Source: Auanema rhodensis
Lineage: Eukaryota; Animalia; Nematoda
Assembly (NCBI GenBank): GCA_964057225.1
Contig: OZ059898.1
Location: 10,602,001 to 10,666,000 of the forward strand
Direction of reading: 5' to 3'
Length of the DNA stretch: 64,000 bases
Shown here: one piece after another, positions 26,249 to 54,990 of the stretch
How the letters are laid out: the number at the start of each line of letters is the position of its first letter
How positions within the stretch are numbered: the stretch's first letter is position 1
Program-made: the position numbers and the translations under genes
The notes under the pieces: generated by a model
Seen by the model: only the letters and a program-made list of their open reading frames with translations
Told to the model about the DNA's origin: nothing
Databases searched by the model: none

Positions 26249-26319
26249 TGCATCGGCCGGGAATCGAACCCGGGTCGCCCGCGTGGCAGGCGAGCATTCT
26301 ACCACTGAACCACCGATGC
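26249..26319 (-). tRNA. tRNA-Gly(GCC)
   Basis: Reverse complement of the 71-nt tRNA-Gly. Confidence 0.97.
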
Positions 26320-26602
26320 TTCGAAAATGTTAGATTGTTTCCGAAAAATTATGAAAAAGTCAAGTTCTACTGATTTGAAGACAATTGTAAGTTTTAGAGA
26401 ACAATCAAAGTTTAGTTTTCTCTACTATTAACTGATTGTCGGCTAAAATATGGTAACAGTTTATGTTAAAAGTCTCCATGATTAAGATTAAACAAAGAAA
26501 AAAAATCAAAGAGAAACACTTCTTGTTTACTTATTTGATTATAATACTTGAAATTCCAAAAACAGTAAAGTAAAACTGTTAAAGCGAGTAAAACTGTTGA
26601 AC

Positions 26603-27031
26603 TACGTCTGAAACGCGGCCTTGCTTAAGAAAACTAGTAATTTTTTTTGCTTTTTCCAGTCTATTTTTTTTCTGTGTATCCGTCAGTTGCTGTCCTCTTC
26701 CGAGATGATAACTCCGCATCTTGAGTTCCTTTTTGACGATGAAACGGACTCGTTCCGTTGAAATACCAAGATCTTTGGCCATTTTTCTCATACTAACCGT
26801 TGAGTCGCGTTGTATCCTACGATTAATGATATTTCTCGTACGTGGAACGTTGACCGAACGGATTCTTCCTGTCTTTGGCTTCTCCTCAATGCTACCTGTA
26901 TCCCTATAAAGTTTTGAAATCTTACGACACGTTGATGATGGAATGTTGAGCCTTCTTGATATCTCTGCAGCAGAGAGACCTTCATCAACTAGACGAGCAA
27001 TAGCACTACGGTGTGGAGAAATTCTTGGCAT
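26603..27031 (-). pseudogene. Tc1/mariner transposase N-terminal paired-HTH region, catalytic domain missing
   Basis: GLSAAEISRRLNIPSSTC...TGRIRS...SMRKMAKDLGIS...VKKELKMRSY...LTDTQKKNRLEKAK; breaks before the expected first catalytic Asp. Confidence 0.85.
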
Positions 27032-27184
27032 TTTTCAAAGCGATTGAATTGAAACGACTGTTATGTCTAATTATGTTAATGACCTTCATAGCTAACACTC
27101 CCCAGGAGTTCATAATTTTTGACACTATTTATGTCACTCAATCAAGCGATTGTAAAAAACGACACATACTTCTCACCCACTCTG
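26603..27184 (-). mobile_element. 5' part of a Tc1/mariner superfamily transposon (maT/DD37D-like), truncated by the satellite
   Basis: TA followed by CAGAGTGGGTGAGAAG... terminus at 27184, then the transposase N-terminus. Confidence 0.85.
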
Positions 27185-27189: not shown

Positions 27190-28898
27190 ATTCATCTAGA
27201 TACGCTTATCTTAGATCTTATCATAGCGAACTACTCTGATTGTGGGCAGGTGCGGTGGAACTCAAAAGAGAGTCAAGCCCGTTCTGAGCACAGTGTAGTA
27301 ACTGCATTTTATTCGTACGACTAATGTCTGTAAAATAAAAATGCAGGAAAATGTATGTGTACCAATAGGTCATTAACAAGAAATTGACAAAATATGATAA
27401 ACAAATTATATAAATAATCAATGAGCTTATGGAAAAAAAAGAAAGAAAAACAAGCTAATTGTTCCACAAAGACAAAATAAGAAAAAACTAAACAGGGAAC
27501 ATAAATGTGTTCAAGGCTTTCCGAAAAGCAGACAAATCATTGATACCAATTAGAATAGGATTGAGTGCATTCCAGATTTTGATTTGCCGGTTCTCAAAGC
27601 TTGAAAGGGCAGCTACAGTTTTGTAATCCGGCGGCATCAGTATAAACTCATGTTGACGAAGAATATAGTTATGATCTTTCGATCTAAGCACGGACTCATT
27701 AAGAATAGAGCCATTCTTTATAATTTTGAAATATTGGCATAAATCAGCTATAGTGTGTCTCGTTTCTAAACGCCTGCCTTGAAGGTGTTTGAGTTTATTA
27801 TCATATCCGTGGATATCCATGGACGATCGAAAAAAAATAGCATTAACATACCGTTTCTGAACATTTTCAACAAGTTGAATATCTTTTAGCAAAAACGGTG
27901 ACCAGACTTCGGAAGCATATTCAAGAATAGGCCTAACGTAACAGGTGAACAATCTGAATAAGAGTTTGGGACAGGAAGAATTAAAACAAGAATAAGCTTA
28001 CAGCGTTTTGACGCCATGGAAGTGATGGAGTGAATATGGGGGCGGAAAGATAAGTTTTTATCTATGATAACACCGAGGTCTTTGAAATTATCAACAATTT
28101 CAAGAGGAACATCATATAGTAAAAACTGGCAATGAGAGTTATCATTACCGAGAATCATAATCTTCGATTTCTTGACATTAACTACCATGTCATTGAAATT
28201 GCACCATAGAGAAAGAATGTGGAGAGAGCATTGTAAACTTTGATTTGATGAGGCAAAAAGTTTAATGTCATCAGCATAGGCAACAGCCTCAGTGTCACGA
28301 TGAAAAGAGGAAATGAGATCGTTGATATATAACAAAAAAAGTAGTGGTCCAAGAATTGTACCTTGAGGGACACCACACTCAATAACTTTGGGTTCAGACA
28401 AGGCATCTTCAAGAACAACTTCAAAAGAACGGTTGGAAAGAAAGTCTTCAAGAAAAAGAACAAGAGATCCTGATATTCCGAAGCTGTTCAATTTGCTGAT
28501 CAGAATTCGATGATTAATTTTATCAAAAGCTTTGGAAAAATCAATAAAAGCTACAGAAACATCCTTACGATATTCTTTAGCGATTCTCCACTGCGAGTGA
28601 GCTTTGAGAAGCGCAGTGCTAGTGCTACGCCCAGGTAAAAAGCCATGTTGAGATGGTGAAATTAGCTTATTATCAAGTAAATGCTTGAGAATGTCTTTTC
28701 TGATAATGCGCTCAAACACTTTGGAGAGACAAGATGTGAGAGAAATGGGTCTATAGTTCTTAGGGTCATTTGAACATCCTGATTTATAAATAGGTTTGAC
28801 CCATGCAGACTTCCAGCTTTTAGGACAGACCCCAAAGGATAAAAAACCATTAAAAAAAATGTCAAAGGACGTACTATAGAAATCGCACACTTATTAAT
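27190..28898 (-). mobile_element. 5'-truncated non-LTR retrotransposon (CR1/L2-like LINE) with 3' UTR
   Basis: RT ORF plus ~300-bp 3' UTR; 5' end fused to Maverick integrase. Confidence 0.9.
27488..28898 (-). pseudogene. LINE reverse transcriptase (frameshifted)
   Basis: NYRPISL, QHGF, DFSKAFD, GVPQGTILGPLLF, YADD, KDLGV, YVRPILEYASEVWSP. Confidence 0.93.
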
Positions 28899-29430
28899 GG
28901 TGGAGCGAGCAAATAGAACTTTAAAAACACGCATGATGAAATATCTCTATTACAAGAATAATCATCGTTGGATTGATATCCTAGATGATTTGGTTGAAGG
29001 AATAAACAAATCTTATAACCGCTCCATGAAAATGCGGCCCATTGATGTTAAAGCAAATATATTCATTGAAGCATATGCACCAGCTGTTAAAAGCCGCTTT
29101 AAAATTGGTGATACTGTTCGCATAAGCAAAAATAGGCGTACTTTTGAAAAAAGCTACGAGTCTGGATATACAATGGAGCTGTTCACAATTGATGAGGTTG
29201 TAACCGGAAACCCAACCGTGTATAAACTTGTAGATTATAATGGTGAACGTATAAAGGGAATATTCTACGAACCTGAACTTGTCTTGGCTACTAATAAAAG
29301 CAACCAGTACTATATAGAAAAAGTTTTAAAAGAGCGTACTCAAAGCGGTAAACGTCAAGTATTTGTAAAATGGAGTGGATATCCCGACAACTTTAATGAA
29401 TGGATAGATGCAGAAAATTTAAATGTATAA
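28897..29430 (+). pseudogene. Maverick integrase 3' half (catalytic E and chromodomain)
   Basis: MVERANRTLK...VKWSGYPDNFNEWI; 5' part replaced by the LINE. Confidence 0.9.
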
Positions 29431-33200: not shown

Positions 33201-33614
33201 TACCTTGATATAATGATATGTGTTCCATTAAATTTTGGTATTTCATATCGTTCTTATCGAATTAACCTTCGATATGTGTTCCATTAAATTTTGGTATTTC
33301 ATATCGTTCTTATCGAATTAACCTTCGATATGTGTTCCATTGAATTTTGGTATTTCATATCGTTCTTATCGAATTAACTTTCGATATGTGTTCCATTGAA
33401 TTACCCATAACAAGTACGGTGAACAAAACGATATACATGCAAAAATTTTATTGTTCTTTAAAATAAAAACAATACAAACACAACACAATAAAAAATAAAC
33501 AAAATAAGTAAACAAACATTATTAATAAATATAATAAATAAATAAAATTTAAAAACAAATTTATAAAAAAGGAAAATCCATGAACCATGATCCCAAAATA
33601 CGATTTTAACAGCT

Positions 33615-33995
33615 CGTTACATATGGTTTCTTCCCGTCTTTTCATGGTCGGAAGATATATGTACTTCTACCTTGTTCCTTAGGTAGGCAGACCCGAACGA
33701 CCCGATTTCCTTATTAAGACAAATACTTAAAGCGAAAAGGATTCATTATCAGATAACAAGAAAATACAATATAAGAATTACATTAAGAAAGAATATAAAG
33801 AGATATAACAAAGTATTAAATAGAGTATATATATAGATGATATAGAGATGAGACTCACATGGCTATAAGACAACCTATCTGGGTTAGGCCAGAAGCAAGA
33901 GTGCCATGTGTGTCCCATGTTGTAGGCGGGGCTTGTTCAGGCTCCCGCTATTTGAATAGCGCGCACATGTTTACCATGTGCTTGCAGATGTGACA
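33615..33995 (-). repeat. 3' LTR (381 bp)
   Basis: Appears identical to 43358-43738; TGTCACA...GTAACG. Confidence 0.97.
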
Positions 33996-34007
33996 TCCCC
34001 CCACCTT
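33996..34007 (-). promoter_or_regulatory. Polypurine tract
   Basis: AAGGTGGGGGGA immediately upstream of the 3' LTR, preceded by the hairpin ttgaacg-agga-cgttcaa (34014-34031). Confidence 0.9.
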
Positions 34008-34607
34008 AAAAAGTTGAACGTCCTCGTTCAAAAACAAAATAAATTAATTCACTTTTTAAGATAGTTGAATGTTGGAAAAAGATAACAAAAAAAATCATGG
34101 TGTAGTCGATAAAAAATAATGTATACAATACGATTTGAAAGTTTAGCTATTGTCTCTTCAAGTTTGTTGAATTCAAAATGTAGTATCGAATAGATTCTAT
34201 TCCATTCACTTGAGTAGTGAAATGCTTGTAAACGAGAGCTTTGCTTCTAAACCATTCGACTGTGATATAGTCGTTCATTTTCTCGAGTTGTACAGGTACG
34301 GTGTTACCCTGAAAATAGGTCGAGCCCGTTCTGTACAAAAAAATGAAAACTCGTTTAACCCGTATGACTAATGTCCATAAGGTGAATACAAGTAATGATT
34401 AAGCATAAAAAATAGCAAAATTCACAAGAGAATGTTGAAAAAAATCTACTCAATGAGAGTTGGAGTAATAAAACAAACTTTTGTAAAACAATAGCAGACT
34501 TCTCAGAGAAAATCAATCAACAACAAAGAAGTGGTACAATCAGAAATGGCACAAAATAAAATAAAAAAAATTTCAACAATTTGATTTTGTTAAAAAAAAA
34601 ACTACCT

Positions 34608-37600
34608 TCAAGAAATTGTGATAACCGGAATAGATGTTGTCCGTTGGTAAGGTTTGACGAAGTCCTTGTGTACTCTTCTGCTTTTTCCTTTATCTGTTTG
34701 AACCACGACGAAAGATCTTTGAACTGCTGTAACTAAATAAGGCCCTTCGAATGAAGGTGTTAGTTTGTTTCGAGTAGAATTCACTTTTATCATAACTAAG
34801 TCATTAACCTGAATTTCTTTATTTTGTGTTCTATTTCGTGTATTGTACCGTTGTTCATTCTTCTTTGTGCATGTTTCAATTCTATCTTTTACTATATTAG
34901 ATGTGCTTTCATTTTGTATTAGCGATCTATTGACAAAATCTTCTGTAGGATTGGCTGATTCTTCAGTTTGAAGATTATTTCCAGGCAATTGATGGTCAAT
35001 AGGAAGTCTTGCATCCCGACCAAATAATACAACATATGGACTAATAGATGTTGATGAGTTTGGTAACGTATTGATCGCAAACATAACTTTAGGTAGGTGT
35101 ATATCCCAGTTAGTTTGTTGTTCATTCACGAATGAAGAGAGAGCTTCTTCTAAAGTTCTATGAAGTCTCTCCACTTGTCCATTAGCATTTTTATGATATG
35201 GTAGCGTAGTAGTGTGTTCAATTCCAAATTGTTTACACATAGCTTGAAATTCAGATGACAAAAAGCTACTACCATTATCGGTTATCATACTCATTGGTGG
35301 TCCATATATGAAAACAAATCTAATTACAAACGCTTTTGTGATTTCAGTAGCCGTTTGTGTTATTAATGGGCAAGTTGTTCCCCATTTACTAAAAGCGTCT
35401 TGAATACTCAAGATGTATCGATGTCCATCATTAGTGCGAGGTAAAGGACCTAGTATATCTACATGAATACGATCAAATGGCTTTTCGGGTATAACAAATC
35501 TTCCCATAGGTTGAATATACGATTGGTGTGGGTTAGATTTCCTACTTGCACATTTTGTACAACGATTAATAAATTCAGTTATTTGTGGAACCATATTAGT
35601 CCAAAAGAATCGTCGTCGAATCGCATCAGTAGTTTTATTTATACCTAGGTGTGCACCAATTTTGGAATCTTCATGAAAAAACTTGATAACAACATCAGTT
35701 ATTTTGTCGTTACGAGGCAAAATAATAGATGGTTTCAAATAATTTTTCGCTTGTTTTGCATGTAATATGCCTTCTCGTTCTTCATACCGGTCTGATATAT
35801 TAGCCGGACAGTTATCATTATTAATTTGAGAAAGTGCTTCGCGAATCCAGGGAACTCCAGCTTGAACTTTCCGTATTTCTTCACAATTTAGTTGGTCAAT
35901 AGAAGAAATAGTTGTGATATGAGCAATAAAAGCATCAACAGGTTTTACTTTGTCCTTTGGTTTAGTAGGACGACTGTCATTTGCTTCGTTTCCTATATAC
36001 CTGGAGAGAGCATCACAGACACTGTTTAATTTGCCAGGACGATATTCAATCTTTATGTTGAAATCTTGTATCATTAGTTGATACTTGGCTAATCTACCTA
36101 TGAGATCTTTACGCGACATTAAACTGGTTAATGGTAGGTGATCTGTGATAACTGTGGTAGGTACTCCTAATACATAGGTACGGAATTGTTGAAGAGCAAA
36201 GACTAAACCGAGTGCTTCAACTTCAATAGGAGGATATTTCCGTTCCGCTGGAGTCAACTTTCTACTAGCGAACGCAATCGGGTGTAATGGAGAATTTTTC
36301 TCTGCTGATTGCAATAAAACTGCTCCCACAGCGATCATACTGCCATCACTTTCTATAACAAAAGGTTGGTCTGCTTTAGGAGGTTTCAGTACAGGGGCAG
36401 TACACAGTGATGTTTTTAAAGTTTTAAATGCGTCTGCATGTTCCGATTTCCACTCAAAAGGAGTATCTTTATGTGTTAACTTATACAATGGCTCAGCTAT
36501 TCCGGCATAATTTTGAATAAACCGTCGAAAATAGTTAGTCATACCTAGAAAGGATCTGACAGCCGTAACTGTACTTGGATTTGGAAATTCGGAAACAGCC
36601 TGTATCTTAGCAGGATCTGGTTTAACACCATTTCTACCTATTACAAAACCCAAAAACTTTACTTCAGTGGCTGCAAAGCAACATTTAGATAACTTAATTT
36701 TTAACCCTAGTTCAGTGACCTTTTTCAGCACTTCTTGTATATCTCTTAAATGTTCATCAGCTGAGTTCGAAATTATTAGCAAATCATCTAGATATACAAA
36801 CAGTTTGCATCTAACAAGAGATTGCAAGTATCGTACTGCGGATTGAAAAGTGTGTGGCGCTCCACACAATCCCATAGGCATTCGGCAATACTGATAGGTA
36901 CCTGATGGAGTGGTAAAAGCAGTTAGGTGTCTATCTGAGCGTTTCAACGGTATTTGGAAGAAACCAGAAATGAGATCAAAATTCGAAAAGAACTGAGCTC
37001 CAGCCGCTAAGTCTATGATATCAGGAATGTGTGGGATGCTGTATGTTTGTTTCTTAGTAACACTATTCAATGCTCTAAAGTCAGTTACGAACCGGAAAGA
37101 ATTATCTTTCTTTTTCACAAGAACAACTGGACTAGTGAAAGTAGCCGTCGAATTTTCGATTATACCTTGCGACAACATTTCTTTCACTTGCCGTTCTACT
37201 TCTTCTTGCTTACCCAATGGTACTCTGTAAGATCTACTTTTTGGGAAATCCATATCGGATCTTATAGGAATGGCATGTTCTACTGGTCCGCAAAAGAGAC
37301 CAATATTATGATCATGGTTGAAAAATGCCGTTTGGTTTTCCTTAATGATTGTGATCAGATTTTTCTTCATTTTATGGGACAGAGTGCAAGAATTGAAGTT
37401 CAAATCATCCAAAAGATGCTGAGGAAAAGTTGGTAACTTATCTTCCCAATCAGCTTCAGGTGGAACATAATCGTTCATAATTTCTTTAGATGCTATAAGT
37501 CCTGAACCAATGTGGTCATTTTTATTAATTTTAATTGGCTTTGAAGAATTGTTTGATACTACCATAGTAATAGGAAAAGGTCCTATGGCGGCATCTGGAA

Positions 37601-40600
37601 TTGAGATAGGACCTATGCTAGATTTTAAAAGAGCATATTGATCAAAATCTAATTCTGGTCCTGTTTGCAAAGATATGTGGGAGGTACTATGTGGTGGAAC
37701 TGTTACTGTGGACAAACTTATGATATTTACTGTTTTAGTTGTGGTTTTATATGCAAAACAACCAGGTTTTACTAAGGGTGTTTCCATATTACCAACAATC
37801 AACTTTCCTTTACATAGTTTTAATGTAGTAAATATCTCTCTTTCTTCCAACGTACGCATAAAATCAGTACCAAGTAACATTTGTCCTGGACAGTCATTGT
37901 CTTCAGATATTAAAAATTCGTGTTCCACTTGGTAACCTGCTATACCCACATCTAACTTGCATTTTCCCACAAAGCGAAACTCTGATCCATTTGCAGTGGA
38001 TGCAGATTTAGAATATTTTGTAAAATATTGTCTTCCAATATATGCCAATGTGGAGAACGGAATATATGAGACAGTAGCTCCAGAATCCCATAATGCTAAC
38101 AGTCCTCTACCTTCAATGTCAATATGAACAAACGGTAACAAGTGTCCATTTTTCTTTGTTGTTGTGTGACATACAAAAGGTATGGCTAAAGGAATGTAAG
38201 TTATGATGGTGGGAAAATAGCTCCGCATCAATTCATCACTAACTGTTTCATGAATCTCATCTCCCTCAAGTGGTGGAGCTGTTGGGCTCAACATGATATG
38301 GTTTATTTTTAACATAGAAGTAGGGGAGAGATAACATTTTATAGTGAAATATAATGCTATCATTAGACATAATATCAGAGTTATACAACCGATGGTAATG
38401 AGTGTTCGTTCAATTGAACCTATACAAAAGTCAATGAACAGATCCCAATTGGAGAAAACAATTTTCCTGGCATCTCTTATAAGTTTACTTCCTTTGAAGA
38501 TGAAAGAGGAAATTTGAGGCCAATCACGTGAACGAGAAATTACGCGGAGAAGATCATGGTGAGGTGAAGTAGATAAACTATAACCATAAGTTAATCCAAT
38601 AGATAGGGCTAAGGATTTTTCAGTCGAATTTTCAAACAAATTCCGCCCTGTGAATCGAAGTTTACTCAATTCAGCATAATGATCATGTTTTTCTGAATGA
38701 ATACTATCTACTTTATGTGTGTCACCTTTATAATCTCTCCATGTTCCATTTTCATACCAAATCTCTGTCTCTTTGTGTTCACAATTGATCTCATGTCCTT
38801 CAGTGCTCAAATCGTAGCTATCGATAGGAGCAAAGAATAATTGTTTATCGTGTGTTAAAACAGGGGTCTCTGCATAACATTTATCATTGTAAGAATGATT
38901 ACGATAAATGAAATGTGGTTCTATTTCCTGACAAGTTGTTATTTTTAAAACATTTCTTCCAACAAATCGGGCAACGATATCATCCCGCTGAAGCATAGCT
39001 CTTACTCCTATTGTAGGATGTATACGTAATATAGCTTGCCAGCTTTTTACAGTTTCCATTTGAGATTTACAGATGGTATGAAACTGTTGATGAAATTCGT
39101 CAATTATGGAGAGACGCGCTTTCTCAAACCCATAATTCAACTTATTATCTATTATCGTTTTAGTTTTATGCTCTGATTTGTGGAGAACATTGTCATATAC
39201 TTCTGCTACATACAACTCTCGACCTCTCTCGTACGCATTAGAGGTAGGAGTTGTTAAACTACGAATTGTAGTTTTGGTGGAAGTTATTGGGGTTACAGTA
39301 GTATGCTGTACCATATTTTTATCAGTTGTGATTGGAGTTTTAACCCAACTTATGAATTCTAAAACTTCTGTTTTATTGAATTTAGGATTTTCCTGTGGGT
39401 ATTCGATGGACTGTGGAGGAAATCCATAATATGCTGTACTATTCTTTGTATAAAGGTTGTGATAGTCAGGCAGCTTGGATATAATTGCTAAATCTTGCTC
39501 TTGGTTGTTTCTAACAGTAGCATCAGCTTTTTGTTGTCGACTGACTTGCATGTCACGAGATATTTGTTCTTTTCCCGATTGTTGTTGGATCATGAATAAC
39601 ATGCCTTGAGCAGTTGCAATAATTTCAGATTGATTCATATTTCCACTGCGTGGTAATATAGATGGATATAAGGCTCTGGCCAACTGTTCGATTGATGGAA
39701 CTGTTTGTGTACCATCAAGAATTGTGGCTTGATATACTACTGCGTGAGCCATTCCTCGAAAGAAGTCTTCTATGGATGTTGTAGATTTCATCAACGATCT
39801 TTTTAACCGAGGAACTTCTATACGACGAGCTACTTGAGTGATAAGATCATCCAATTTCATGCTATTAATCACCTGTCTAGTAGCCAGTTTAATTTCCTCT
39901 ATACCCATACATTGTAAAATCAAAAGATTGGGATCTTTGAAATTATTAGACTTTGCCCAGTTAGTTATGTGATCTTTTGTCAATCCTAAACTAACAATTG
40001 TGTCAATGAACAGTGGATTATCTATCGCGAATTGGAGCAAACTCTCATAAGATGATGTAGCTGCATATCTCATATATTTTGCGTAAAACTTAGTGATAGA
40101 TGCAGATCCAAAAATGAAAGTAGGTCTTAGAAATGGAAACGCATATGGTTGGGATTTCGCATTAACAAAAAGATAATCATCACTGAAAGAGCGATGTTTT
40201 TGAGGTAATGCATTACGTTTATTTCTGCGTCTATCAGCATTAAGCAAAGTATTGGAAAGATCAAGCAAATTATAAACACGGGGATATGCTGTGAATCGGA
40301 TAATTGCCTCAGAGGATGATTCAAAAACAGCGAATTCGAAACAAGATTGAACGTGAGCGGATGTGGAATGATTTTGGAGAACAAAAGCGCTTTCAATAGA
40401 GTGAACTAGAAGAATATGATCACCCAACATGGCGGAGAAGGGGCCAAGTTTTTGATAGTGACAGACAACTGATGGGATAGGTGGTTGCCAGATAACTGCA
40501 CCTTCACCAGTTGCACAAAACCCTTCATTTCCTTTACAATTATCAGTATTTATAAATAAGTCTGATACAATGTGATCTTCTTTCAATCTAGTTATTATCC

Positions 40601-42209
40601 CTCGCTTCAATACAAATTGTTCAATTTCTACACATTCTTCAGTGGACCAAGAGCGAGTTGGATTATGCTCGTTTAATGGTGTTTCAAAAACTGAATGCTG
40701 TTGGGCATTCATGATTTTATCATTCCACATACGATTTCTATGTGCTCGAACACAATCTTTCTTATCTACTGTTTCAATATGAGAGAATGTGGTGTTACGA
40801 TCTCTCAAAAACATGAAATCTCTCACACAGCTTTTATACTTTTTCACATAGCATTTCCATGCTTCCCATGACTCTATCTCAGCCTTTGGTAGATATATTT
40901 CTACCTCAACACTGTGAGCCTTTTCAATTTCTGCCTTATGGCAGCCTGTGACCACAGGAGGTGTTACTAATATACCCCCTTCAGATTGAGCGCAAATCTG
41001 ATATTTTGCCGACCCAAAGGGAAGGCATGAGAGTGCCAATAAAGTCAGGCACAACGTGACCGGTGGCATGAATGGGGTCGCTACGCTGTATACCCTTGAG
41101 TTACCATTCCCATTGGCTGATGGTCTTTGTCTTCTTGGGGAACTAGGCCTAGGGTTCCAAGACGAGCTATTGGCATTTCTGCCATTGGCAAATGGGCGGT
41201 TTCCCGGGTTAGGACGCCTATTCATATTCCCGTTTTGCGAGTTATTATTATTATAACGTACGACAGAAGGTCGCTCTCTCTCTCGCTCATAATCATTAGA
41301 GCCATTATTGTGCTGAGTCCAGTTATTATTTTTTTTATAATTTTTATAATTTTTATAATTTTTATTATTATTCCTACTTCTTTCTCTTTCTTCACTAAAG
41401 CTTAATTTATGCTGTAAAGCATTTATGAGCTCCTTCAAGGTGCTAGTGTCTTCATTTCTTTTCATGAAGCTATTTCGAACGCCTTCTTCAAACCTAGCTA
41501 ATTTCTTAGCTTGTTCATAAGTGGCGGGGTTTTTAGTTAAAACCGCAATACCCAGTTCCTCTTTTAAACCATTTAAAAATGCCGTTTTCAACATTGGTTC
41601 CCGCTCGGGATCCATTGGTGACATTATGGTGCTTGCCATTCTCTCTAATTCCATACTAAAATCAAGAACAGATTTATCTCCTTGTTGTACTCGATGAATA
41701 AGCGCTATGGTGAAATTTTTATCTGTTTTAGGCGCTAAAAGCTCAGTGAGCTGATCCATCAAAACAATCCATGGGCCATTAGTTCTTATGCCACTAGGAA
41801 TACTATTATACAAGGAGAGAGCTGTTTCATTTGATTCCAAAAGAAGAGGCAAAATTAATAGTCTCTCAGGTAAGCTTAGATTCATAACATTAAAAAATCT
41901 ATTTAAAGATTCAACAAAAGAACGAAAGCTACGAGAGCCGTCATACCTGGGACAGAGATGGCAATTCAAAATAGTTGCCATATTTCTAGAGGGTGGGGCA
42001 ACATTAGAATTAGGAGATGGAGAGGTAGGAGTCATTTTTCTTTCAAAAGCTTTAGTTATAGCAGCGGCCCACCGACTTGGTGATCTATTTCGTACTGTAA
42101 TAGGTGCCCGAGGTGTTTCCTCAGTGATGGCCTTTCTGCTTTTACTTCTCGTTCTAATTGTTAGAGAAGAAGAGTGAGAAGAAGAAGAGGAATCACCTTC
42201 TTCTCTCAA
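34608..42209 (-). CDS. Gag-Env-Pol polyprotein (2533-codon ORF; first ATG at 42035): capsid, signal peptide, class III-like glycoprotein, TM, aspartic protease, RT, RNase H, integrase
   Basis: Gag QQGDKSVLDF; signal peptide aa 381-401; Cys-rich ectodomain; TM ~1270-1290; LWDSGA; YLDD; DGS...EAL...TDH...DALSR; HHCC, DILGP/TDNG/VERL and GPY. Confidence 0.96.
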   Translation of the reverse strand: MREEGDSSSSSHSSSLTIRTRSKSRKAITEETPRAPITVRNRSPSRWAAAITKAFERKMTPTSPSPNSNVAPPSRNMATILNCHLCPRYDGSRSFRSFVESLNRFFNVMNLSLPERLLILPLLLESNETALSLYNSIPSGIRTNGPWIVLMDQLTELLAPKTDKNFTIALIHRVQQGDKSVLDFSMELERMASTIMSPMDPEREPMLKTAFLNGLKEELGIAVLTKNPATYEQAKKLARFEEGVRNSFMKRNEDTSTLKELINALQHKLSFSEERERSRNNNKNYKNYKNYKKNNNWTQHNNGSNDYERERERPSVVRYNNNNSQNGNMNRRPNPGNRPFANGRNANSSSWNPRPSSPRRQRPSANGNGNSRVYSVATPFMPPVTLCLTLLALSCLPFGSAKYQICAQSEGGILVTPPVVTGCHKAEIEKAHSVEVEIYLPKAEIESWEAWKCYVKKYKSCVRDFMFLRDRNTTFSHIETVDKKDCVRAHRNRMWNDKIMNAQQHSVFETPLNEHNPTRSWSTEECVEIEQFVLKRGIITRLKEDHIVSDLFINTDNCKGNEGFCATGEGAVIWQPPIPSVVCHYQKLGPFSAMLGDHILLVHSIESAFVLQNHSTSAHVQSCFEFAVFESSSEAIIRFTAYPRVYNLLDLSNTLLNADRRRNKRNALPQKHRSFSDDYLFVNAKSQPYAFPFLRPTFIFGSASITKFYAKYMRYAATSSYESLLQFAIDNPLFIDTIVSLGLTKDHITNWAKSNNFKDPNLLILQCMGIEEIKLATRQVINSMKLDDLITQVARRIEVPRLKRSLMKSTTSIEDFFRGMAHAVVYQATILDGTQTVPSIEQLARALYPSILPRSGNMNQSEIIATAQGMLFMIQQQSGKEQISRDMQVSRQQKADATVRNNQEQDLAIISKLPDYHNLYTKNSTAYYGFPPQSIEYPQENPKFNKTEVLEFISWVKTPITTDKNMVQHTTVTPITSTKTTIRSLTTPTSNAYERGRELYVAEVYDNVLHKSEHKTKTIIDNKLNYGFEKARLSIIDEFHQQFHTICKSQMETVKSWQAILRIHPTIGVRAMLQRDDIVARFVGRNVLKITTCQEIEPHFIYRNHSYNDKCYAETPVLTHDKQLFFAPIDSYDLSTEGHEINCEHKETEIWYENGTWRDYKGDTHKVDSIHSEKHDHYAELSKLRFTGRNLFENSTEKSLALSIGLTYGYSLSTSPHHDLLRVISRSRDWPQISSFIFKGSKLIRDARKIVFSNWDLFIDFCIGSIERTLITIGCITLILCLMIALYFTIKCYLSPTSMLKINHIMLSPTAPPLEGDEIHETVSDELMRSYFPTIITYIPLAIPFVCHTTTKKNGHLLPFVHIDIEGRGLLALWDSGATVSYIPFSTLAYIGRQYFTKYSKSASTANGSEFRFVGKCKLDVGIAGYQVEHEFLISEDNDCPGQMLLGTDFMRTLEEREIFTTLKLCKGKLIVGNMETPLVKPGCFAYKTTTKTVNIISLSTVTVPPHSTSHISLQTGPELDFDQYALLKSSIGPISIPDAAIGPFPITMVVSNNSSKPIKINKNDHIGSGLIASKEIMNDYVPPEADWEDKLPTFPQHLLDDLNFNSCTLSHKMKKNLITIIKENQTAFFNHDHNIGLFCGPVEHAIPIRSDMDFPKSRSYRVPLGKQEEVERQVKEMLSQGIIENSTATFTSPVVLVKKKDNSFRFVTDFRALNSVTKKQTYSIPHIPDIIDLAAGAQFFSNFDLISGFFQIPLKRSDRHLTAFTTPSGTYQYCRMPMGLCGAPHTFQSAVRYLQSLVRCKLFVYLDDLLIISNSADEHLRDIQEVLKKVTELGLKIKLSKCCFAATEVKFLGFVIGRNGVKPDPAKIQAVSEFPNPSTVTAVRSFLGMTNYFRRFIQNYAGIAEPLYKLTHKDTPFEWKSEHADAFKTLKTSLCTAPVLKPPKADQPFVIESDGSMIAVGAVLLQSAEKNSPLHPIAFASRKLTPAERKYPPIEVEALGLVFALQQFRTYVLGVPTTVITDHLPLTSLMSRKDLIGRLAKYQLMIQDFNIKIEYRPGKLNSVCDALSRYIGNEANDSRPTKPKDKVKPVDAFIAHITTISSIDQLNCEEIRKVQAGVPWIREALSQINNDNCPANISDRYEEREGILHAKQAKNYLKPSIILPRNDKITDVVIKFFHEDSKIGAHLGINKTTDAIRRRFFWTNMVPQITEFINRCTKCASRKSNPHQSYIQPMGRFVIPEKPFDRIHVDILGPLPRTNDGHRYILSIQDAFSKWGTTCPLITQTATEITKAFVIRFVFIYGPPMSMITDNGSSFLSSEFQAMCKQFGIEHTTTLPYHKNANGQVERLHRTLEEALSSFVNEQQTNWDIHLPKVMFAINTLPNSSTSISPYVVLFGRDARLPIDHQLPGNNLQTEESANPTEDFVNRSLIQNESTSNIVKDRIETCTKKNEQRYNTRNRTQNKEIQVNDLVMIKVNSTRNKLTPSFEGPYLVTAVQRSFVVVQTDKGKSRRVHKDFVKPYQRTTSIPVITIS

Positions 42210-43344
42210 AAATTCAAAAGGAGAGAGGTAGGTGGATGGAGTATTTAAGTTTTTAGAATTAAATTCAAAAACTGGGCGTACCTCTGGTGATCCTTGTTCC
42301 TGATCTTTGTTTTCCTCGCTGATGTCCGAGTCCGACAGGTTGGCTGGTGAATACAGTTAGATGAATATAAGAGCGCGTACTGGAAGCAACTAGACTCCAG
42401 TAAAAACGTTTGTGACAATGGCGTCTAATGAAGGAGAATCGTTGAAGCTTCAAGCTCCGCCTCCAGCCATGTGTCACGACACCAGATGTTAGCGCTTATG
42501 GTAAACAACCATTGACCGTCTGTCGTGATATTTGAATATTATAATCACTAATGTCAGCTTAGAGACAAATAAGGAATCACAGATGGTGCCTTAAGCCTGT
42601 TTGAAAACTTTTGAATTTTAACAGCTGTTATTGACTACACATGTCGAACAGCTGGTACGCGTGGGCCAACTATTTGAATGTGAGTAAGCTTAAAGTAAAC
42701 AAAAATGTCTCATCTCGTATATTAAGTTCAATTTTATAAAGTTTATTAAGATTTGTAGAAAGAATTTCAAAATAAATCTTAATTAAGATTATTTTTAATT
42801 TCAAATGATTTAGAAGGTAATTTAAGATTGATATAGGAATTTAAATTCAGTAATCTGTCAATAATATAGGAAAAAGGAAACGTTGGCAGACGTAGAGTGG
42901 ACTTGGGTGGGTAGGAATTTAAATATTCTTATTATCTCTGAACTAATAAGAAAAGAGTTAACAGGAGTAGAACCCTGATGAACCCTTGGATGTGAATCAA
43001 AATTAATAAATCGTAAATAAAATTATCCCAACAGCCTCCAGCTTCCAAACAACTCAGCTAAAAAGTGAGCTCTGTTGCCACACTGGACATTCACATCATA
43101 AAGTAATGAATCAAAATAGCACGCGCGTGCATAACAAAAAGGTAACGCTCGTCAAAACTATTGTCTGATAGTTTCCCCAAACGTCTCAGACACCTCCCAG
43201 TTTTCGTTGAGCGGAGGAGAAGTGGTAGCCAAAATAATTTTTGGGGAAATCATGGTGCACGGCTCGGTTACTCCTCACTGTTGGGTAATTAAGTCCAAAA
43301 GTCTCGTAAACTTGCTGTCAATAAATTAACAGTAAAGTAAGCAA

Positions 43345-43357
43345 GGCGGAACCTCCA
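43345..43357 (-). promoter_or_regulatory. Primer binding site, tRNA-Gln type
   Basis: TGGAGGTTCCGCC directly after the 5' LTR, complementary to the ...GGAACCUCCA 3' end of animal tRNA-Gln. Confidence 0.8.
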
Positions 43358-43738
43358 CGTTACATATGGTTTCTTCCCGTCTTTTCATGGTCGGAAGATA
43401 TATGTACTTCTACCTTGTTCCTTAGGTAGGCAGACCCGAACGACCCGATTTCCTTATTAAGACAAATACTTAAAGCGAAAAGGATTCATTATCAGATAAC
43501 AAGAAAATACAATATAAGAATTACATTAAGAAAGAATATAAAGAGATATAACAAAGTATTAAATAGAGTATATATATAGATGATATAGAGATGAGACTCA
43601 CATGGCTATAAGACAACCTATCTGGGTTAGGCCAGAAGCAAGAGTGCCATGTGTGTCCCATGTTGTAGGCGGGGCTTGTTCAGGCTCCCGCTATTTGAAT
43701 AGCGCGCACATGTTTACCATGTGCTTGCAGATGTGACA
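43358..43738 (-). repeat. 5' LTR (381 bp)
   Basis: Direct repeat of 33615-33995. Confidence 0.97.
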
Positions 43739-43872
43739 AGCTGACGCTCAAAATTATGTTTTTGACAGCTGACGCGCCCCAAAATTATGTTTTTAGCAGC
43801 TGACGCCCCCAAAAGTATGTTTTTGACAGCTGTTTGGGGGCGTGGTTAGTAAATTTTGCACGGCTCTCTACT
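43739..43872 (-). repeat. Outer part of the Maverick polB-side TIR (inner part 33210-33614), terminus at 43872
   Basis: ~30-bp CAGCTG repeats and terminal ...ggctctctact. Confidence 0.9.
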
Positions 43873-44673: not shown

Positions 44674-46468
44674 TTATAGAGGTAAGGAAACTGTGCTTTA
44701 CTCATATCAGGTACACCAAATGCCTTGGGTAACGCTGATAGGGGTAAAAGCACTAATAAATAACTATCTTTAAAATATAAATGATTAAATTTTTGACAAA
44801 AAAACTAATTGTTATAATTTTTAATATCGCTTACTCATCACTGTCATCCAAGGTTATTACTTCAATAACCCTTGATGATGAGGGCCCACTGTTAAAAGTG
44901 GGTGCTGTGGGCTCACAGAGCTCGATACCACCAGCCTCGGTAAACTTTATACGTTTACTAAAAAAAAAATATGTATAAATAAATTCAAAATATTGTTAAA
45001 TTACCTAAGTTGATTGATTTCTTCATAGTCAAATCCTAGCTCTTCACATAAACGCTTATAACTAAAAAAAGAAAAAGTTTACAAACAAATAATCAAAAAG
45101 ACACAACATATTAGCAGCCATTGTACCTTGATATAATGATATGTGTTCCATTAAATTTTGGTATTTCATATCGTTTTTATCGAATTAACCTTCGATATGT
45201 GTTCCATTAAATTTTGGTATTTCATATCGTTCTTATCGAATTAACCTTCGATATGTGTTCCATTGAATTTTGGTATTTCATATCGTTCTTATCGAATTAA
45301 CTTTCGATATGTGTTCCATTGAATTACCCATAACAAGTACGGTGAACAAAACGATATACATGCAAAAATTTTATTGTTCTTTAAAATAAAAACAATACAA
45401 ACACAACACAATAAAAAATAAACAAAATAAGTAAACAAACATTATTAATAAATATAATAAATAAATAAAATTTAAAAACAAATTTATAAAAAAGGAAAAT
45501 CCATGAACCATGATCCCAAAATACGATTTTAACAGCTGACGCTCAAAATTATGTTTTTGACAGCTGACGCGCCCCAAAATTATGTTTTTAGCAGCTGACG
45601 CCCCCAAAAGTATGTTTTTGACAGCTGTTTGGGGGCGTGGTTAGTAAATTTTGCACGGCTCTCTACTGTGGTACACTCTTATTTTTAGGAAACACTAATT
45701 CAAAATGTTGGATCCCACTGAGGAAACGCAGGATTGTTGCGAAAAACAGACTTGTACACATCCGATTACAAGTACAACATTTCCAGACACTTTGTAAAAA
45801 AGAAACTTTTACAAAATGTTAACACATGTTCTAATTTTAAATGAAAATTTATTGTTCAATAAATATATTACGAAACATTTATTCTATTCTTGAACATAGT
45901 TATGAAATACATTAGCTATCAGTAGAGAGCCGTGCAAAATTTACTAACCACGCCCTCAAACAGCTGTCAAAAACATACTTTTGGGGGCGTCAGCTGCTAA
46001 AAACATACTTTTGGGGCGCGTCAGCTGTCAAAAACATATTTTTGAGCGTCAGCTGTTAAAATCATATTTCGGGATCATGGTTCATGGATTTTACTTTTTT
46101 AAATTTAAAAATCATGATTTAAAGCATGATTAAAATTTTTTTTTTTTAAATCAAATTTAAATATGCTTTTTTAAATGTATATATATAATTATATATTTTG
46201 AATTAATTTTTAAATATATTAAGTGAAAAAAAAAATCTAAATTTTAAATATTTAAATTATATTAAAATTTTATATTTATAAATTATATTTAAATTATATT
46301 TAACCTTTATATATATAAATTATATTTAAATTTTAAATATATTAATTTGTTTTAAAATTTTATTACTTTATTCATTTATTATATTTATTAATTATGTTTG
46401 TTTACTTATTTTGTTTACTTATTTTGTTTATTATGTTATAATATTGTGTTTTTTACTGTTTTTATTTT
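44674..46468. repeat. 1795-bp duplication of polB fragment-TIR-253-bp spacer-TIR, lacking the LTR element (empty site)
   Basis: Termini at 45667 and 45921 vs 43872 and 44126; uninterrupted aacAGCTgacg at 45534-45537. Confidence 0.92.
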
Positions 46469-48003: not shown

Positions 48004-49170
48004 AGATGGCTGTTGTTTATGGCACAAACGGTAAACAATAATGTTTAAAGAGATGTAAAAACTAATTAATATGCAGATTGTTTACAGGTTCAGAGTGCGC
48101 CAACTGCTGGCAACTGTCGATAAGATGAGTATATCTGCATAAATATGCTGTAAAATCTAATTAATAAGAGAATTTCATCAGCAAACTTGATTGTAACACA
48201 ATGGGTTGTACTTTACAAAAATCTTTGTATAAAAGGTTGGCAATTTTGCTACATTTACATTTCAGCTCTGCCAACTATCCGAGGATCCGACGTTTCACCA
48301 TCTCCTGCCACTCTTTGCCAATCGCCATAGACTGCTCCTCTCTGCAAGTTTGCCTTATATTTTAGAAAGTTGGATCTTTAGCGGAAATGAAGCGTGCTGT
48401 ACTTGCTGATGTGACACACTACACTTTACTTTAAACTAAGTCCAGAAGCACTCAACATCCACACCAGCTCCAAATTTTACAAGTTTTGGTATGAACCTTA
48501 ACTTGTATTTTTTAAATCTTTAATTTAGATTCACCAATAAAGCAGATGGAGATTCTGAGAGAGAGCACTCCACCAAGGAGTGTATTAATGAGACCAATTT
48601 GTCTCTGCAAAACTTGTAGGGAATCATTGCAGGTTATAGACGAGTATCACTGTTTCAGCCTCTGTATAAAGTGTAGAGGAAGAAATGATGCGTTGGGTCT
48701 TTTGAAGGAATTTCGTCACTATAAGCCCGAAAACTTTTCTATTAATGTAAGCTTGCATATTTATTTATTTTCAATTTTATCATTTTTTAGATGCGCTCTT
48801 ATAACACCATGACGTGCAAACAATTGTTGAACAATATGGGCTATATTGTTATATATGCAGATGAGGCTACTGTAAAGACTTTTGGTTATAAGCAGAATGT
48901 ATTCTACTTTAAACTAAGTCCAGAAGCACTCAACCTGAACATGTTTATCCGCTTTGATCCTTCATTTTGACTACAACAAGCACAAATAGTACAATTGGCG
49001 TTTTATTCTTGTTTTGTTATATGGCATTTTTATATTCTCAGCCGTAACATTTTTTTTTCCAGCTCTTAAGAATATCCATCAATGGCTCATCAATTGAGGA
49101 CGAATGATCAACCAACTGGTAAGAATTTGAAAATTTGAATAGTCTACATTTTTTTTTTGCAGGTTGAATT
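48004..49170 (+). other. Putative multi-exon Maverick accessory gene with a Cys-rich exon; mirror copy ~29520-30695 on the minus strand
   Basis: Repeated short gt...tttcag/tttag introns around GC-richer blocks; exon ICLCKTC...HCFSLCIKC. Full reading frame not resolved. Confidence 0.45.
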
Positions 49171-49264
49171 GTTGTTTGTATTTTGCTGGTTTTTTATTGT
49201 TACATTATGCGATATATCAAATAAATCATTTATTATAATTACAATTGTTTATAACATTGAAAAA

Positions 49265-50261
49265 TTATACATTTAAATTTTCTGCATCTATCCATTCATT
49301 AAAGTTGTCGGGATATCCACTCCATTTTACAAATACTTGACGTTTACCGCTTCGAGTACGCTCTTTTAAAACTTTTTCTATATAGTACTTGTTACTGTTA
49401 TTAGTAGCCAAGACAAGTTCAGGTTCGTAGAATATTCCCTTTATACGTTCACCATTATAATCTACAAGTTTATACACGGTTGGGTTTCCGGTTACAACCT
49501 CATCAATTGTGAACAGCTCCATTGTATATCCAGACTCGTAGCTTTTTTCAAAAGTACGCCGATTTTTGCTTATGCAAACAGTATCACCAATTTTGAAGCG
49601 GCTTTTAACAGCTGGTGCATATTCTTCAATGAATATATTTGCTTTAACATCAATGGGCCGCATTTTTATGGAGCGGTTGTAAGATTTGTTAATTCCTTCA
49701 ACCAAATCATCTAGGATATCCATCCAACGATGATTATTCTTGTAATAGAGATATTTCATCATGCGTGTTTTTAAAGTTCTATTTGCTCGCTCCACCATTG
49801 CAGCCTTTTGTGGTGAACTTGTAGATCCGTGCAGTATGGCAAACTTTTTGAATAGTTTTTCACAATGACTATTATAAAACTCTGTGCCATTATCAGTAAT
49901 CAACTGAATTGGTATAAAATTCTTGAATAAACTTTCAAATGCACTAGCAACCTCTATACCACCTTTACATGCGTGTATAAACATCAATCATGGTCAACAT
50001 GTAAGCATAGCCGTCGTTTAATTTTTTATATTTTTGCATATCAACCAAATCTGCTTGCACTGTTAGAAATCGACCACATCCTCTAGTCTTTCTAGTCTGC
50101 ATACGCATTCTGGTTGGTTTATGCCGTGTAAAAGTTCTTGCAAAAAATCATCAACTTGTACCTTTGAAATGCCATGTTTTCGTGCTTGCGATAATAAATT
50201 CTTGGCTGATGTATATAAAGCTGGATGTTTTATATCGTAATAAATGCTCGCCAAAATATCA
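49265..50261 (-). pseudogene. Maverick integrase with chromodomain, same frameshifts as 11925-12921
   Basis: DDE motifs split across reading frames. Confidence 0.9.
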
Positions 50262-50975
50262 TTTCCATAATCTAATGTAGAACCTTTTACGACCTTGGCC
50301 ATTCTGTGAGTCTCCTTCTTGTGGTGTGTAATATGATTCGGCGGCAGTATCAAAAGTCTTTGACCTTTTACTTTTGAGTGTACGAACCGGTGATGGTGAA
50401 TATCTAATAACAGCTTTACGATGACGAGGCGTTCTAGGTAATATAGTAGAGTCCAAGTCTGTAACAGCCGGTTCAGCTTTAGTTACAACGTCAACTGAAT
50501 CATTGTCAGCCGACTCTCTTCTAGTTTGTTTCTTGTTAGAACTAGATACGCCTTTACTGGCTAAAAACTTTGACAAGACTGAAAATCCATTGGGCTCCGT
50601 TTTTGTTTCATCCAATACAAAATCTAAAATTTTTGTAATATTCGTGTTTGGTACAGCCTCATTATTAATCACAAGTTGATTACTCTTGTTTGTGCGCACC
50701 TCTGGAAATTTCTCCCACAAATTGTTATACTTTCTTGGCAACTTGTATTCTGGCAACAGAGGTGGATCAGCATTTTCCACTTGTACTGATATGGGCGCAT
50801 CTATACTTTCTCTATAGTTTTTGAGACGAGCAATCAAGTCTTCGTATAGTTCAGCCTTTTTATAGTCGGGTATAGCTCTATTTTCTCGTAAAAGCTTGAG
50901 CTCTGCATCAAACTTGTCTATATTAATTGTTTCCTCGTCGACAGGAATTAGTCGATACTTATGGTTGAGCTTCAT
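50259..50975 (-). CDS. Maverick protein of unknown function (238 aa)
   Basis: Intact ORF, same as 12919-13635. Confidence 0.75.
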   Translation of the reverse strand: MKLNHKYRLIPVDEETINIDKFDAELKLLRENRAIPDYKKAELYEDLIARLKNYRESIDAPISVQVENADPPLLPEYKLPRKYNNLWEKFPEVRTNKSNQLVINNEAVPNTNITKILDFVLDETKTEPNGFSVLSKFLASKGVSSSNKKQTRRESADNDSVDVVTKAEPAVTDLDSTILPRTPRHRKAVIRYSPSPVRTLKSKRSKTFDTAAESYYTPQEGDSQNGQGRKRFYIRLWK

Positions 50976-51280
50976 GATTTAAAACCAAAATAGGCAATAC
51001 CACATGTAACTATTGTTTTCAATTGTTTGTGTGAACGCGTTGCCAATAATGATTTAGCCTTTTCCGGTGTGCGTATCAAAGCTAATTGACGTAATAATGA
51101 AGATATGGGCAAGAGGGTTTTATATTCCTTGTCAGTTAAAAGAAAATTATTATTTTTCACAATATTAAATACAATTTCAACAATAATTTCAATTTGTGCA
51201 AAAGAAAATGAGGAAACAGAACAAGGAGTTTTGGCGCAAGAAGACAAAAAGTTGAAATTTGACAAAATACGACCACTCAT
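50972..51280 (-). CDS. Small Maverick protein (102 aa)
   Basis: Same as 13632-13940. Confidence 0.7.
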   Translation of the reverse strand: MSGRILSNFNFLSSCAKTPCSVSSFSFAQIEIIVEIVFNIVKNNNFLLTDKEYKTLLPISSLLRQLALIRTPEKAKSLLATRSHKQLKTIVTCGIAYFGFKS

Positions 51281-51292
51281 TGAACAAGCACT

Positions 51293-51940: not shown

Positions 51941-52019
51941 AATCAACCACTCGTAAATGTACCTAAAATGCAAATGATTTCATTTGCAATAGTGTACACG
52001 TATCAAGTGGTGGTTTGTC

Positions 52020-54985: not shown

Positions 54986-54990
54986 ACGTT

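What the first reader, a model, noticed from the sequence alone, without database searches (positions are those of the whole stretch)
33615..43738. Young, intact Ty3/Gypsy endogenous retrovirus with env fused inside the polyprotein (gag-ENV-pol)
Seen: one uninterrupted ORF in which a signal peptide (aa 381-401, nt 41007-41069), a Cys-rich ectodomain and a TM helix (nt ~38340-38405) lie between Gag and the protease. The LTRs look identical and the TSD is perfect. Knowledge: errantiviruses and retroviruses carry env 3' of pol; from memory, gag-env-pol metaviruses with RNA-virus-derived glycoproteins have been reported in nematodes, so the layout is rare but probably not unprecedented. Inference: signal peptidase frees Gag, Env enters the ER and Pol re-emerges in the cytosol on the Env tail, a flavivirus-like topology giving 1:1:1 stoichiometry unless splicing intervenes. 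The copy may be infectious.
Basis: partly seen in the sequence, partly recalled or inferred. Interest (0 to 1): 0.85.

Follow-up and report, generated by a model that had tools for sequence, protein, structure and literature searches.

The report
Nematode retrovirus with internal envelope gene
This is an unbroken, likely recently inserted retrovirus-like element, likely from a roundworm, whose single giant protein carries a predicted herpes-type membrane-fusion protein between its capsid and its enzymes; the layout is already published, and only a likely cutting-and-budding plan read from short motifs is new.

Summary
One 2,475-aa ORF runs Gag, internal signal peptide, Env, transmembrane helix, protease, RT, RNase H and integrase. 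It lies between identical 381-bp LTRs with a 4-bp TSD, and a paralogous empty site is in the window. The Env model matches class III fusogens: herpes gB (Foldseek E 9e-11; VIA Z 11.6) and negative-strand-virus G proteins. RT-RNase H nests at 100/99 support among Caenorhabditis, Auanema and Ancylostoma polyproteins with the same order. The PBS fits tRNA-Gln, as in published Caenorhabditis elements. So it is a new member of the nematode gag-env-pol Metaviridae (Sacco 2022, not read; Chary and Hayashi 2026, 36 nematode elements). The same in-frame layout is also published for planarian Burro, and this scan noted it earlier on flatworm DNA. Additions not found in the papers I could read: a PTAP late-domain-like motif in the cytosolic spacer between Env and protease (P[ST]AP in 4 of 16 elements, 0 of 41 env-less controls), recurrent protease-site-like motifs flanking Env, a 353-aa Env linker with two furin sites, and TG...CG LTR ends. 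Expression, splicing and infectivity are untested.

The parts
43358..43738 (-). 5' LTR, 381 bp, ends TGTCACA...TGTAACG
   Evidence: identical to the 3' LTR
43346..43357 (-). Primer-binding site, likely tRNA-Gln (reverse complement GCGGAACCTCCA)
   Evidence: one mismatch to each of two tRNA-Gln 3' ends listed for Caenorhabditis elements in PMC13524379 supplementary file 1
42036..42356 (-). 107 open codons in frame upstream of the first ATG; possible N-terminal Gag extension (non-AUG start or upstream exon), unexplained
   Evidence: open in 32 of 20,000 base shuffles
41403..41954 (-). Gag capsid domain (aa ~28-211)
   Evidence: Retrotrans_gag E 2.7e-4 and Ty3_capsid E 0.005, both below the Pfam cut-off; matches Gag of 8 of the 16 Env-matching relatives
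41070..41393 (-). Basic, Asn-rich low-complexity Gag tail (aa 215-322); likely RNA-binding region; no CCHC knuckle
   Evidence: 21 K/R, 7 D/E, 28 N; CCHC absent in 11 of 11 elements
41007..41069 (-). Predicted internal signal peptide (aa 323-343), likely cut after Ala343
   Evidence: hydropathy; equivalent segment in 11 of 11 elements; the (-3,-1) rule is from my own knowledge
40266..41006 (-). Env domains I-II region (fusion and PH-like domains), 10 invariant Cys, hydrophobic putative fusion loops near aa 407-410 and 463
   Evidence: AF2 pLDDT mostly 70-90; gB match; alignment
39216..40265 (-). Env inter-domain linker, ~350 aa: furin-type sites RNKR (40215-40226) and RLKR (39798-39809), helical part, Thr-rich end; no relative found
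38706..39215 (-). Env domains III-IV: long central helix and beta crown, 4 invariant Cys
   Evidence: Pfam Glycoprotein_B E 1.2e-4, below cut-off; AF2
38340..38402 (-). Env transmembrane helix (aa 1212-1232)
   Evidence: KD19 peak 2.63; present in 17 of 17 env-first elements
38154..38339 (-). Predicted cytosolic Env tail / spacer: INHI (protease-site-like), PTAP at 38274-38285, conserved TYIP-x hydrophobic stretch
37776..38153 (-). Aspartic protease (DSG, aa 1317)
   Evidence: E 5e-7
36456..37268 (-). Reverse transcriptase (YLDD, aa 1748)
   Evidence: E 1e-34; nearest solved structure is Ty3 RT
35991..36455 (-). RNase H, catalytic motifs present
34611..35738 (-). Integrase: HHCC, D,D35E, GPY motif; no chromodomain hit
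33996..34008 (-). Polypurine tract abutting the 3' LTR
33615..33995 (-). 3' LTR, 381 bp
33611..33614 (.). Target-site duplication AGCT (second copy at 43739-43742)
45534..45537 (.). Paralogous empty target site (single AGCT) in a duplicated host segment
   Evidence: flanks 99.5-99.8% identical

Best explanation
This is an unbroken Ty3/Gypsy LTR element with env in frame between gag and protease, likely a recently inserted member of the nematode gag-env-pol retroviruses, whose one polyprotein is predicted to be threaded through the ER membrane and likely cut by host and viral proteases into capsid, fusion protein and enzymes. Steps: (1, shown) a single ORF, LTRs, TSD, PBS, PPT and all catalytic motifs are present. 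(2, predicted fold) Env is a gB-like class III fusogen. (3, inferred) Gag is made in the cytosol; the internal signal at aa 323-343 opens translocation; signal peptidase cuts after Ala343, leaving Gag tethered to the membrane by the signal stub; the TM helix stops transfer, so PR-RT-RH-IN emerges in the cytosol on the Env tail. (4, inferred) furin cuts the Env linker in the Golgi. (5, inferred) the element's own protease cuts at [IV][NH]x[IVL]-type sites after the TM and before the protease, and probably before the signal. (6, weakest inference) PTAP in the spacer recruits ESCRT-I so that particles bud with a membrane and reach germline cells, as Drosophila errantiviruses do.
For: Architecture. 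Family: the RT-RNase H best PDB match is Ty3 (E 2e-83, against 5e-40 for foamy-type Pol and 5e-34 for p80 RT). 15 of the 120 listed Pol relatives carry a homologous Env before the protease; 13 of the 15 are named as nematode proteins. The query sits in a 16-row env-first clade (100/99), sister to an Auanema protein (97/96) (FastTree on 118 of 121 rows agrees). Fold: 115 PDB and 189 BFVD Foldseek matches at E<=0.001, headed by HSV gB and by G proteins of Beihai rhabdo-like virus 3, Keturi virus and Nyavirus; VIA best hit is prefusion HSV-1 gB, Z 11.6, rmsd 6.5 A, 369 aligned. Selection on Env: 14 Cys are invariant in 11 of 11, and an RxK/RR site is present in 10 of 11. Internal signal: 9 of 11 elements have no Met before the hydrophobic core. 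Motifs: [IV][NH]x[IVL] in 16 of 17 TM-to-protease linkers (shuffle mean 2.4, 0 of 2,000 reach it); strict P[ST]AP in 4 of 16 (shuffle mean 0.06; 0 of 41 env-less controls, Fisher p 0.005). Literature: PMC13524379 and PMC6431247.
Against: No expression, protein or particle data. The AF2 model is only partly confident (mean pLDDT 59, pTM 0.40; 348 of 891 residues below 50) and global TM-scores are low (TMq 0.12-0.24). The Pfam gB hit is below its cut-off, and the query alone does not hit Monjiviricetes_fusion, though 8 of 8 relatives do. The motifs were chosen after seeing the data and the sequences are related, so the p-values overstate the support. P[ST]AP is absent from 12 of 16 linkers; ASAP is reported as attenuated (PMC2958808) or non-functional (PMC3640512). 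The protease-site-like motif is not enriched before the protease of env-less relatives (4 of 41, shuffle mean 2.8), and the query's own pre-signal site (VYSV) does not match it (6 of 11 elements do). This copy has a Met (323) right at its signal, so a separate Env-Pol start is possible here. A 1:1:1 ratio is a poor fit to capsid assembly unless something makes extra Gag. The host is inferred, not identified.
Confidence: 0.8

Rival explanations
1. Regulated expression: the genome is one ORF, but splicing, trans-splicing or an internal start makes separate Gag, Gag-Pol (env skipped) or Env-Pol products, so the full polyprotein is a minor species.
For: Met323 begins the signal peptide in this copy. 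Equimolar Gag and Pol is hard to square with capsid assembly (my knowledge). The 107 open codons upstream of the first ATG hint at RNA processing or a non-AUG start.
Against: 9 of 11 elements lack a Met before the signal core. A scan for strong consensus sites found no TTT(C)AG-type acceptor between TM and protease and no strong donor at the Gag end; weak sites were not scored.
Confidence: 0.2
2. The element transposes inside the cell like an ordinary retrotransposon. Env is kept as a membrane anchor or passenger, and particles never fuse with another cell.
For: No infectivity data in the text I could read: 'infect' passages in PMC13524379 concern Drosophila, mouse and other ERVs (12 of 14 places shown). 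The late motif is missing in most relatives.
Against: 14 invariant Cys, a conserved furin site and hydrophobic fusion-loop positions are kept at about 17-31% identity, which is hard to explain without selection on a working fusogen.
Confidence: 0.12
3. The LTR identity or the joined ORF is an assembly artefact in a repeat-rich region.
For: The window is full of near-identical duplications and satellites. No reads were laid on it.
Against: Clean 4-bp TSD and an empty-site paralog. The same in-frame order occurs in 15 independent database proteins. 11 of 15 listed runs, from 3 studies, hold half or more of the element's sampled words (one may be the source sample).
Confidence: 0.02

Closest known systems
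Nematode endogenous retroviruses (NERV; Sacco et al. 2022, J Gen Virol, PMID 35550022; title and citation seen in the reference list of PMC13524379, text not held; details recalled)
   Same: Metavirus RT, env placed before pol, nematode relatives, glycoprotein resembling negative-strand-virus G (Nyavirus is rank 3).
   Different: I recall accessory ORFs (a small protein or a Upf1-like helicase) in some NERVs. This element has no ATG-started sense ORF of 80 aa or more besides the polyprotein. It could not be aligned to the paper's own sequences.
HSV/gB-type 'ancient errantiviruses' with GAG-ENV-POL order (Chary and Hayashi 2026, PMC13524379; read: abstract, section 5 part 1, section 6, search passages, Nematoda rows of supplementary file 1)
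   Same: gB-type Env, GAG-ENV-POL order, LTRs, low copy. tRNA-Gln PBS in 8 of 36 nematode rows, which are all 8 Caenorhabditis rows that have a PBS assigned.
   Different: The main text has no occurrence of ESCRT, late domain, polyprotein, splic- or frameshift, so processing and budding are not treated there. Figures and five other supplementary files were not seen.
Caenorhabditis, Auanema and Ancylostoma polyproteins in NCBI (P0001-P0003, P0005-P0010, P0012, P0017, P0018, P0025)
   Same: Same order, same Cys pattern, Pol 33-50% identical for most.
   Different: The query has the longest Env linker of 11 (353 aa against 63-329). It has two furin sites, as only P0017 also does.
Burro/GYPSM1 of planarians (PMC6431247; passages read)
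   Same: env in frame between gag and pol in one polyprotein; described there as the first such case.
   Different: About 4,900-5,100 aa with many cargo domains and CCHC knuckles; flatworm host. GAG-ENV-POL elements are reported as non-monophyletic.
Drosophila errantiviruses (gypsy, ZAM)
   Same: Ty3/Gypsy Pol plus an envelope; a working model for soma-to-germline spread.
   Different: Their env is a separate 3' ORF of F type. Here it is gB type and internal.
Nematode Maverick fusogen MFUS-1 (bioRxiv 10.1101/2022.07.12.499685; passages read)
   Same: gB-like class III fold, signal peptide, one TM, similar length (866 aa), nematode mobile element.
   Different: A stand-alone gene of a DNA element. 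Homology to this Env was not tested directly; the Maverick remnants in this window give no Env match at E<0.1.

Membership tests
Metaviridae (Ty3/Gypsy) | LTR-flanked element with TSD, PBS and PPT | tested here: met
Metaviridae (Ty3/Gypsy) | Pol order PR-RT-RH-IN | tested here: met
Metaviridae (Ty3/Gypsy) | RT-RNase H closest to Ty3-type enzymes | tested here: met
   Ty3 E 2e-83, well ahead of foamy-type Pol, p80 RT and HIV RT; Ty3_capsid hit for Gag (weak)
NERV / nematode GAG-ENV-POL elements | One continuous gag-env-pro-pol ORF | tested here: met
NERV / nematode GAG-ENV-POL elements | RT groups with nematode env-first elements | tested here: met
   100/99; 36 rows: 16 env-first and 20 of the 104 others, chosen by me; P0025 left out; 118 of 121 rows
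NERV / nematode GAG-ENV-POL elements | Falls inside the clade as drawn with the published NERV sequences | not testable with these tools
   paper not held; its sequences not available
NERV / nematode GAG-ENV-POL elements | gB-type (class III) Env | tested here: met
NERV / nematode GAG-ENV-POL elements | Host is a chromadorean nematode | tested here: inconclusive
   inferred from nearest relatives only; no genome is held
Class III viral fusogens | Fusion domain, PH-like domains, long central helix and crown as in gB | tested here: met
   (Z 11.6, rmsd 6.5, 369 aligned)
Class III viral fusogens | Homotrimer | not tested
   no complex job was run
Class III viral fusogens | Membrane-fusion activity | not testable with these tools
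   needs an assay
Errantivirus in the classical (Drosophila) sense | Separate F-type env ORF 3' of pol | tested here: not met
   Env is internal and gB-like; no ORF of 80 aa or more with ATG after pol
Belpaoviridae (BEL/Pao, e.g. env-bearing Cer and Tas elements; names recalled) | Pao-type Gag with CCHC knuckles and Pao-type protease and RT | tested here: not met
   no CCHC; Pfam shows gypsy-type domains only
Retroviridae | gag-pol-env order, class I Env, retroviral RT | tested here: not met

The most novel reading that the evidence does not exclude
Nematode gag-env-pol elements are true budding viruses built on a flavivirus-like plan. Env sits inside the C-terminus of Gag, so the signal stub replaces a matrix domain as the membrane anchor. 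The short spacer behind the Env TM helix acts as an HIV p6-like peptide: it is flanked by viral-protease sites and carries a P[ST]AP late domain that recruits ESCRT-I from the Env-Pol half of the polyprotein.
Probability: 0.3. Interest if true: 0.65.

Novelty: new member of a known kind. Interest (0 to 1): 0.33.

Why it matters
The layout is published, so the element itself is not a discovery. It is a clean example of a class whose life cycle is untested in the papers I could read: how one membrane-threaded polyprotein gives capsid, spike and enzymes, and whether such elements leave the cell. The spacer motifs give cheap, specific predictions: cut sites and TSG-101 binding. If they hold, they would show a late domain carried on an envelope tail and support cell-to-cell spread of retroelements in nematodes, a route relevant to germline invasion and horizontal transfer.

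Tried and rejected
Env-only searches of the 5.8-billion-protein set found nothing: 0 of 4,785 candidates and 0 of 4,190. Relatives came only through Pol, so those blanks reflect low sensitivity. PDB sequence search with Env gave one chance hit, E 0.27. The HMMER search of cluster representatives and the ESM Atlas did not complete, so stand-alone relatives of Env, including Maverick fusogens, are untested. No whole genome is held, so copy number and solo LTRs are unknown. No read-level data were obtained, so expression, splicing and sharing of the insertion site stay open. The contig scans gave no Env relative in viral contigs (0 of 5 candidates) and two distant Pol loci (32-33%) without Env in metagenomes. 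The idea that the Env linker holds a helical domain shared across elements failed for the query: leave-one-out score -1.7, with 65 of the 229 scored shuffles (300 made) at or above it; 2 of 5 elements beat all shuffles. The linker folded alone at pLDDT 43 and matched only generic coiled coils, best Z 6.0; Pfam gave nothing credible. The idea that [IV][NH]x[IVL] is a general gypsy Gag-protease site was not supported: 4 of 41. A second TM before the protease was considered: a mild hydrophobic stretch recurs in relatives but is below 1.3 in the query, and it would put Pol in the lumen. Paper searches for a late domain in gypsy elements (0 papers), for the TSG101 motif (0 papers, 3 papers) and for signal-peptidase processing of such polyproteins (1 unrelated listing) found nothing on these elements; Sacco 2022 could not be read and may cover it. 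Earlier-finding look-ups by sequence, place and NERV words were empty.
Full report
Observation. The element spans 33615-43738 on the minus strand. It has one ORF of 2,475 codons from the first ATG (34608-42035) with no stop, and the frame stays open for 107 more codons upstream. The two LTRs are identical over 381 of 381 bases. The TSD is AGCT, and a duplicated copy of the host segment 1.8 kb away has the empty site with one AGCT, with flanks 99.5-99.8% identical. A PBS follows the 5' LTR and a purine tract precedes the 3' LTR. Pfam places Gag (weak), gB ectodomain (weak), protease, RT, RNase H and integrase in that order. All catalytic motifs are present. Youth is inferred from LTR identity and the empty paralog; no reads were laid to confirm the assembly.

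Family. The RT-RNase H region is closest to Ty3 among solved structures (E 2e-83). A Pol search listed the best 120 of 250 hits. Of these, 16 match the query's Env region: 15 with Env before the protease and one with Env after the integrase. I added P0013, a truncated unnamed protein with TM, linker and Pol, to this env-first set. In an IQ-TREE analysis of 36 RT-RNase H rows (16 env-first, 20 of the 104 others, P0025 left out), the env-first set is one side of a 100/99 branch, and the query is sister to the Auanema protein (97/96) inside a rhabditid subclade (100/99). FastTree on 118 of 121 RT domains gives the same clade. The root is a midpoint only. The host is therefore likely a nematode; this is an inference, since no genome is held.

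Env. AlphaFold2 on a 15-row alignment gave confident N-terminal and C-terminal cores and a poorly predicted middle and stem (mean pLDDT 59). Foldseek's top PDB matches are all herpesvirus gB (best E 9e-11). The top viral-model matches are G proteins of negative-strand RNA viruses, entomopoxvirus proteins and gB (best E 6e-18). VIA-align's first five rows are herpes gB (Z 11.6, rmsd 6.5 A, 369 aligned for the best), then Chandipura G, above a floor of coiled coils at about 6. Global TM-scores are low because domain positions differ. Fourteen Cys are invariant across 11 Env regions (two of them near-copies of each other) at about 17-31% identity in the core domains, and 10 of 11 have an RxK/RR site after domain II. 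The query's linker is the longest of the 11 (353 aa) and has two such sites; it has no detectable relative or reliable fold.

What is known. Chary and Hayashi (PMC13524379) state that elements in Nematoda, Bryozoa and Platyhelminthes carry gB-type Env in GAG-ENV-POL order and credit Sacco et al. 2022 for the nematode case. Their supplementary file 1 lists 36 nematode elements, all gB type; 8 have a tRNA-Gln PBS, and the window's PBS is one mismatch from two of the tRNA ends listed there. I saw the abstract, section 5 part 1, section 6, search passages and those rows, not the figures or the other supplements. Sacco 2022 is not held; I saw only its citation, and what I say of its content is recalled. 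[quoted passage not shown] Nematode Mavericks carry a gB-like fusogen too (bioRxiv 10.1101/2022.07.12.499685, passages). The finding is therefore a new member of a known kind.

Mechanism. The topology follows from the sequence and from established knowledge of signal peptides and stop-transfer helices: Gag cytosolic, Env luminal, Pol cytosolic. A hydrophobic segment precedes the first invariant Cys in 11 of 11 elements, and 9 of 11 have no Met before it, so the signal is normally internal; this copy is one of the two exceptions (Met323). Signal peptidase would leave Gag tethered by the stub, which could stand in for a matrix domain (inference). Gag lacks a CCHC knuckle in 11 of 11 elements and has a basic, Asn-rich tail instead. 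Behind the TM helix, 16 of 17 linkers contain [IV][NH]x[IVL] (shuffle mean 2.4), which I read from memory as resembling retroelement protease sites. The control did not back that reading: only 4 of 41 env-less relatives show it before the protease, and 6 of 11 elements show it before the signal, the query not among them. The query has PTAP 7 residues after its INHI site. Strict P[ST]AP occurs in 4 of 16 linkers from three subclades (shuffle mean 0.06; 0 of 41 scorable env-less controls out of 103), and [AP][ST]AP in 7 of 17. An x[ST]AP motif lies 5-9 residues after an NxV-type site in 6 of the 8 linkers that have one. PTAP binds ESCRT-I directly, and ASAP is a weakened version (PMC2958808, abstract start and passages); an arenavirus ASAP is reported as non-functional (PMC3640512, passages). 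The motif was picked after viewing the data, the rows are related, and 12 of 16 lack the strict form, so I give the late-domain reading about 0.3. The eLife main text has no occurrence of ESCRT, late domain, polyprotein or splicing, and searches found nothing relevant, but the unread Sacco paper may discuss processing.

Open points. How enough Gag is made from a 1:1:1 ORF is unresolved. A scan for strong splice sites found none that would skip env, but weak sites were not scored and no RNA evidence was obtained. The upstream open frame (32 of 20,000 shuffles) and the CG-ending LTRs are unexplained. Infectivity is not shown by anything here.

Verdict. The feature is real and as described, and the family assignment is secure (about 0.95). 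The threading-and-cleavage model is likely (about 0.75), and the ESCRT step is a testable lead (about 0.3). Interest 0.33.

Noticed in passing
window 1-11600 and 20000-26300: A 231-bp AT-rich satellite in direct and inverted arrays, with 12 tRNA-Gly(GCC) genes interspersed.
   Followed up: no
window 11900-19900, 28800-29400, 49200-56200, 59500-63200: Duplicated, partly broken Maverick/Polinton-like genes: integrase with chromodomain, ATPase, adenovirus-type protease, protein-primed PolB. 11592-17727 is 99.8% identical to 48933-55065. No fusogen remnant matched the Env set.
   Followed up: partly
window 56717-59044 (+) and 27488-28890 (-): Non-LTR (LINE-like) RT ORFs; the first has an RT hit at E 4e-39, with an endonuclease-like ORF just upstream at 56155-56775.
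   Followed up: partly
window 26579-27034 (-): A Tc1/mariner-like transposase N-terminal HTH fragment (family label is my inference).
   Followed up: no
window 33615 and 43358 (3' ends of both LTRs): Both LTRs end in TGTAACG rather than the usual ...CA, yet the insertion has a clean 4-bp TSD.
   Followed up: partly
window 42036-42356 (-): 107 open in-frame codons before the first ATG, GC 42% against 36.5% in the distal leader; several relatives' gene models also have low-complexity N-terminal extensions.
   Followed up: partly
window ~38190-38200 (-), polyprotein aa 1280-1283: A [YF][IVL]P-type motif just before the protease recurs in 15 of 16 env-first linkers under a loose pattern, often followed by a hydrophobic run; role unexplained.
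   Followed up: partly
   Followed up: no
protein P0053: A gypsy polyprotein with a homologous gB-like region after the integrase (gag-pol-env in one ORF), labelled as cyanobacterial MAG, likely a eukaryotic contaminant; it falls outside the env-first clade.
   Followed up: partly
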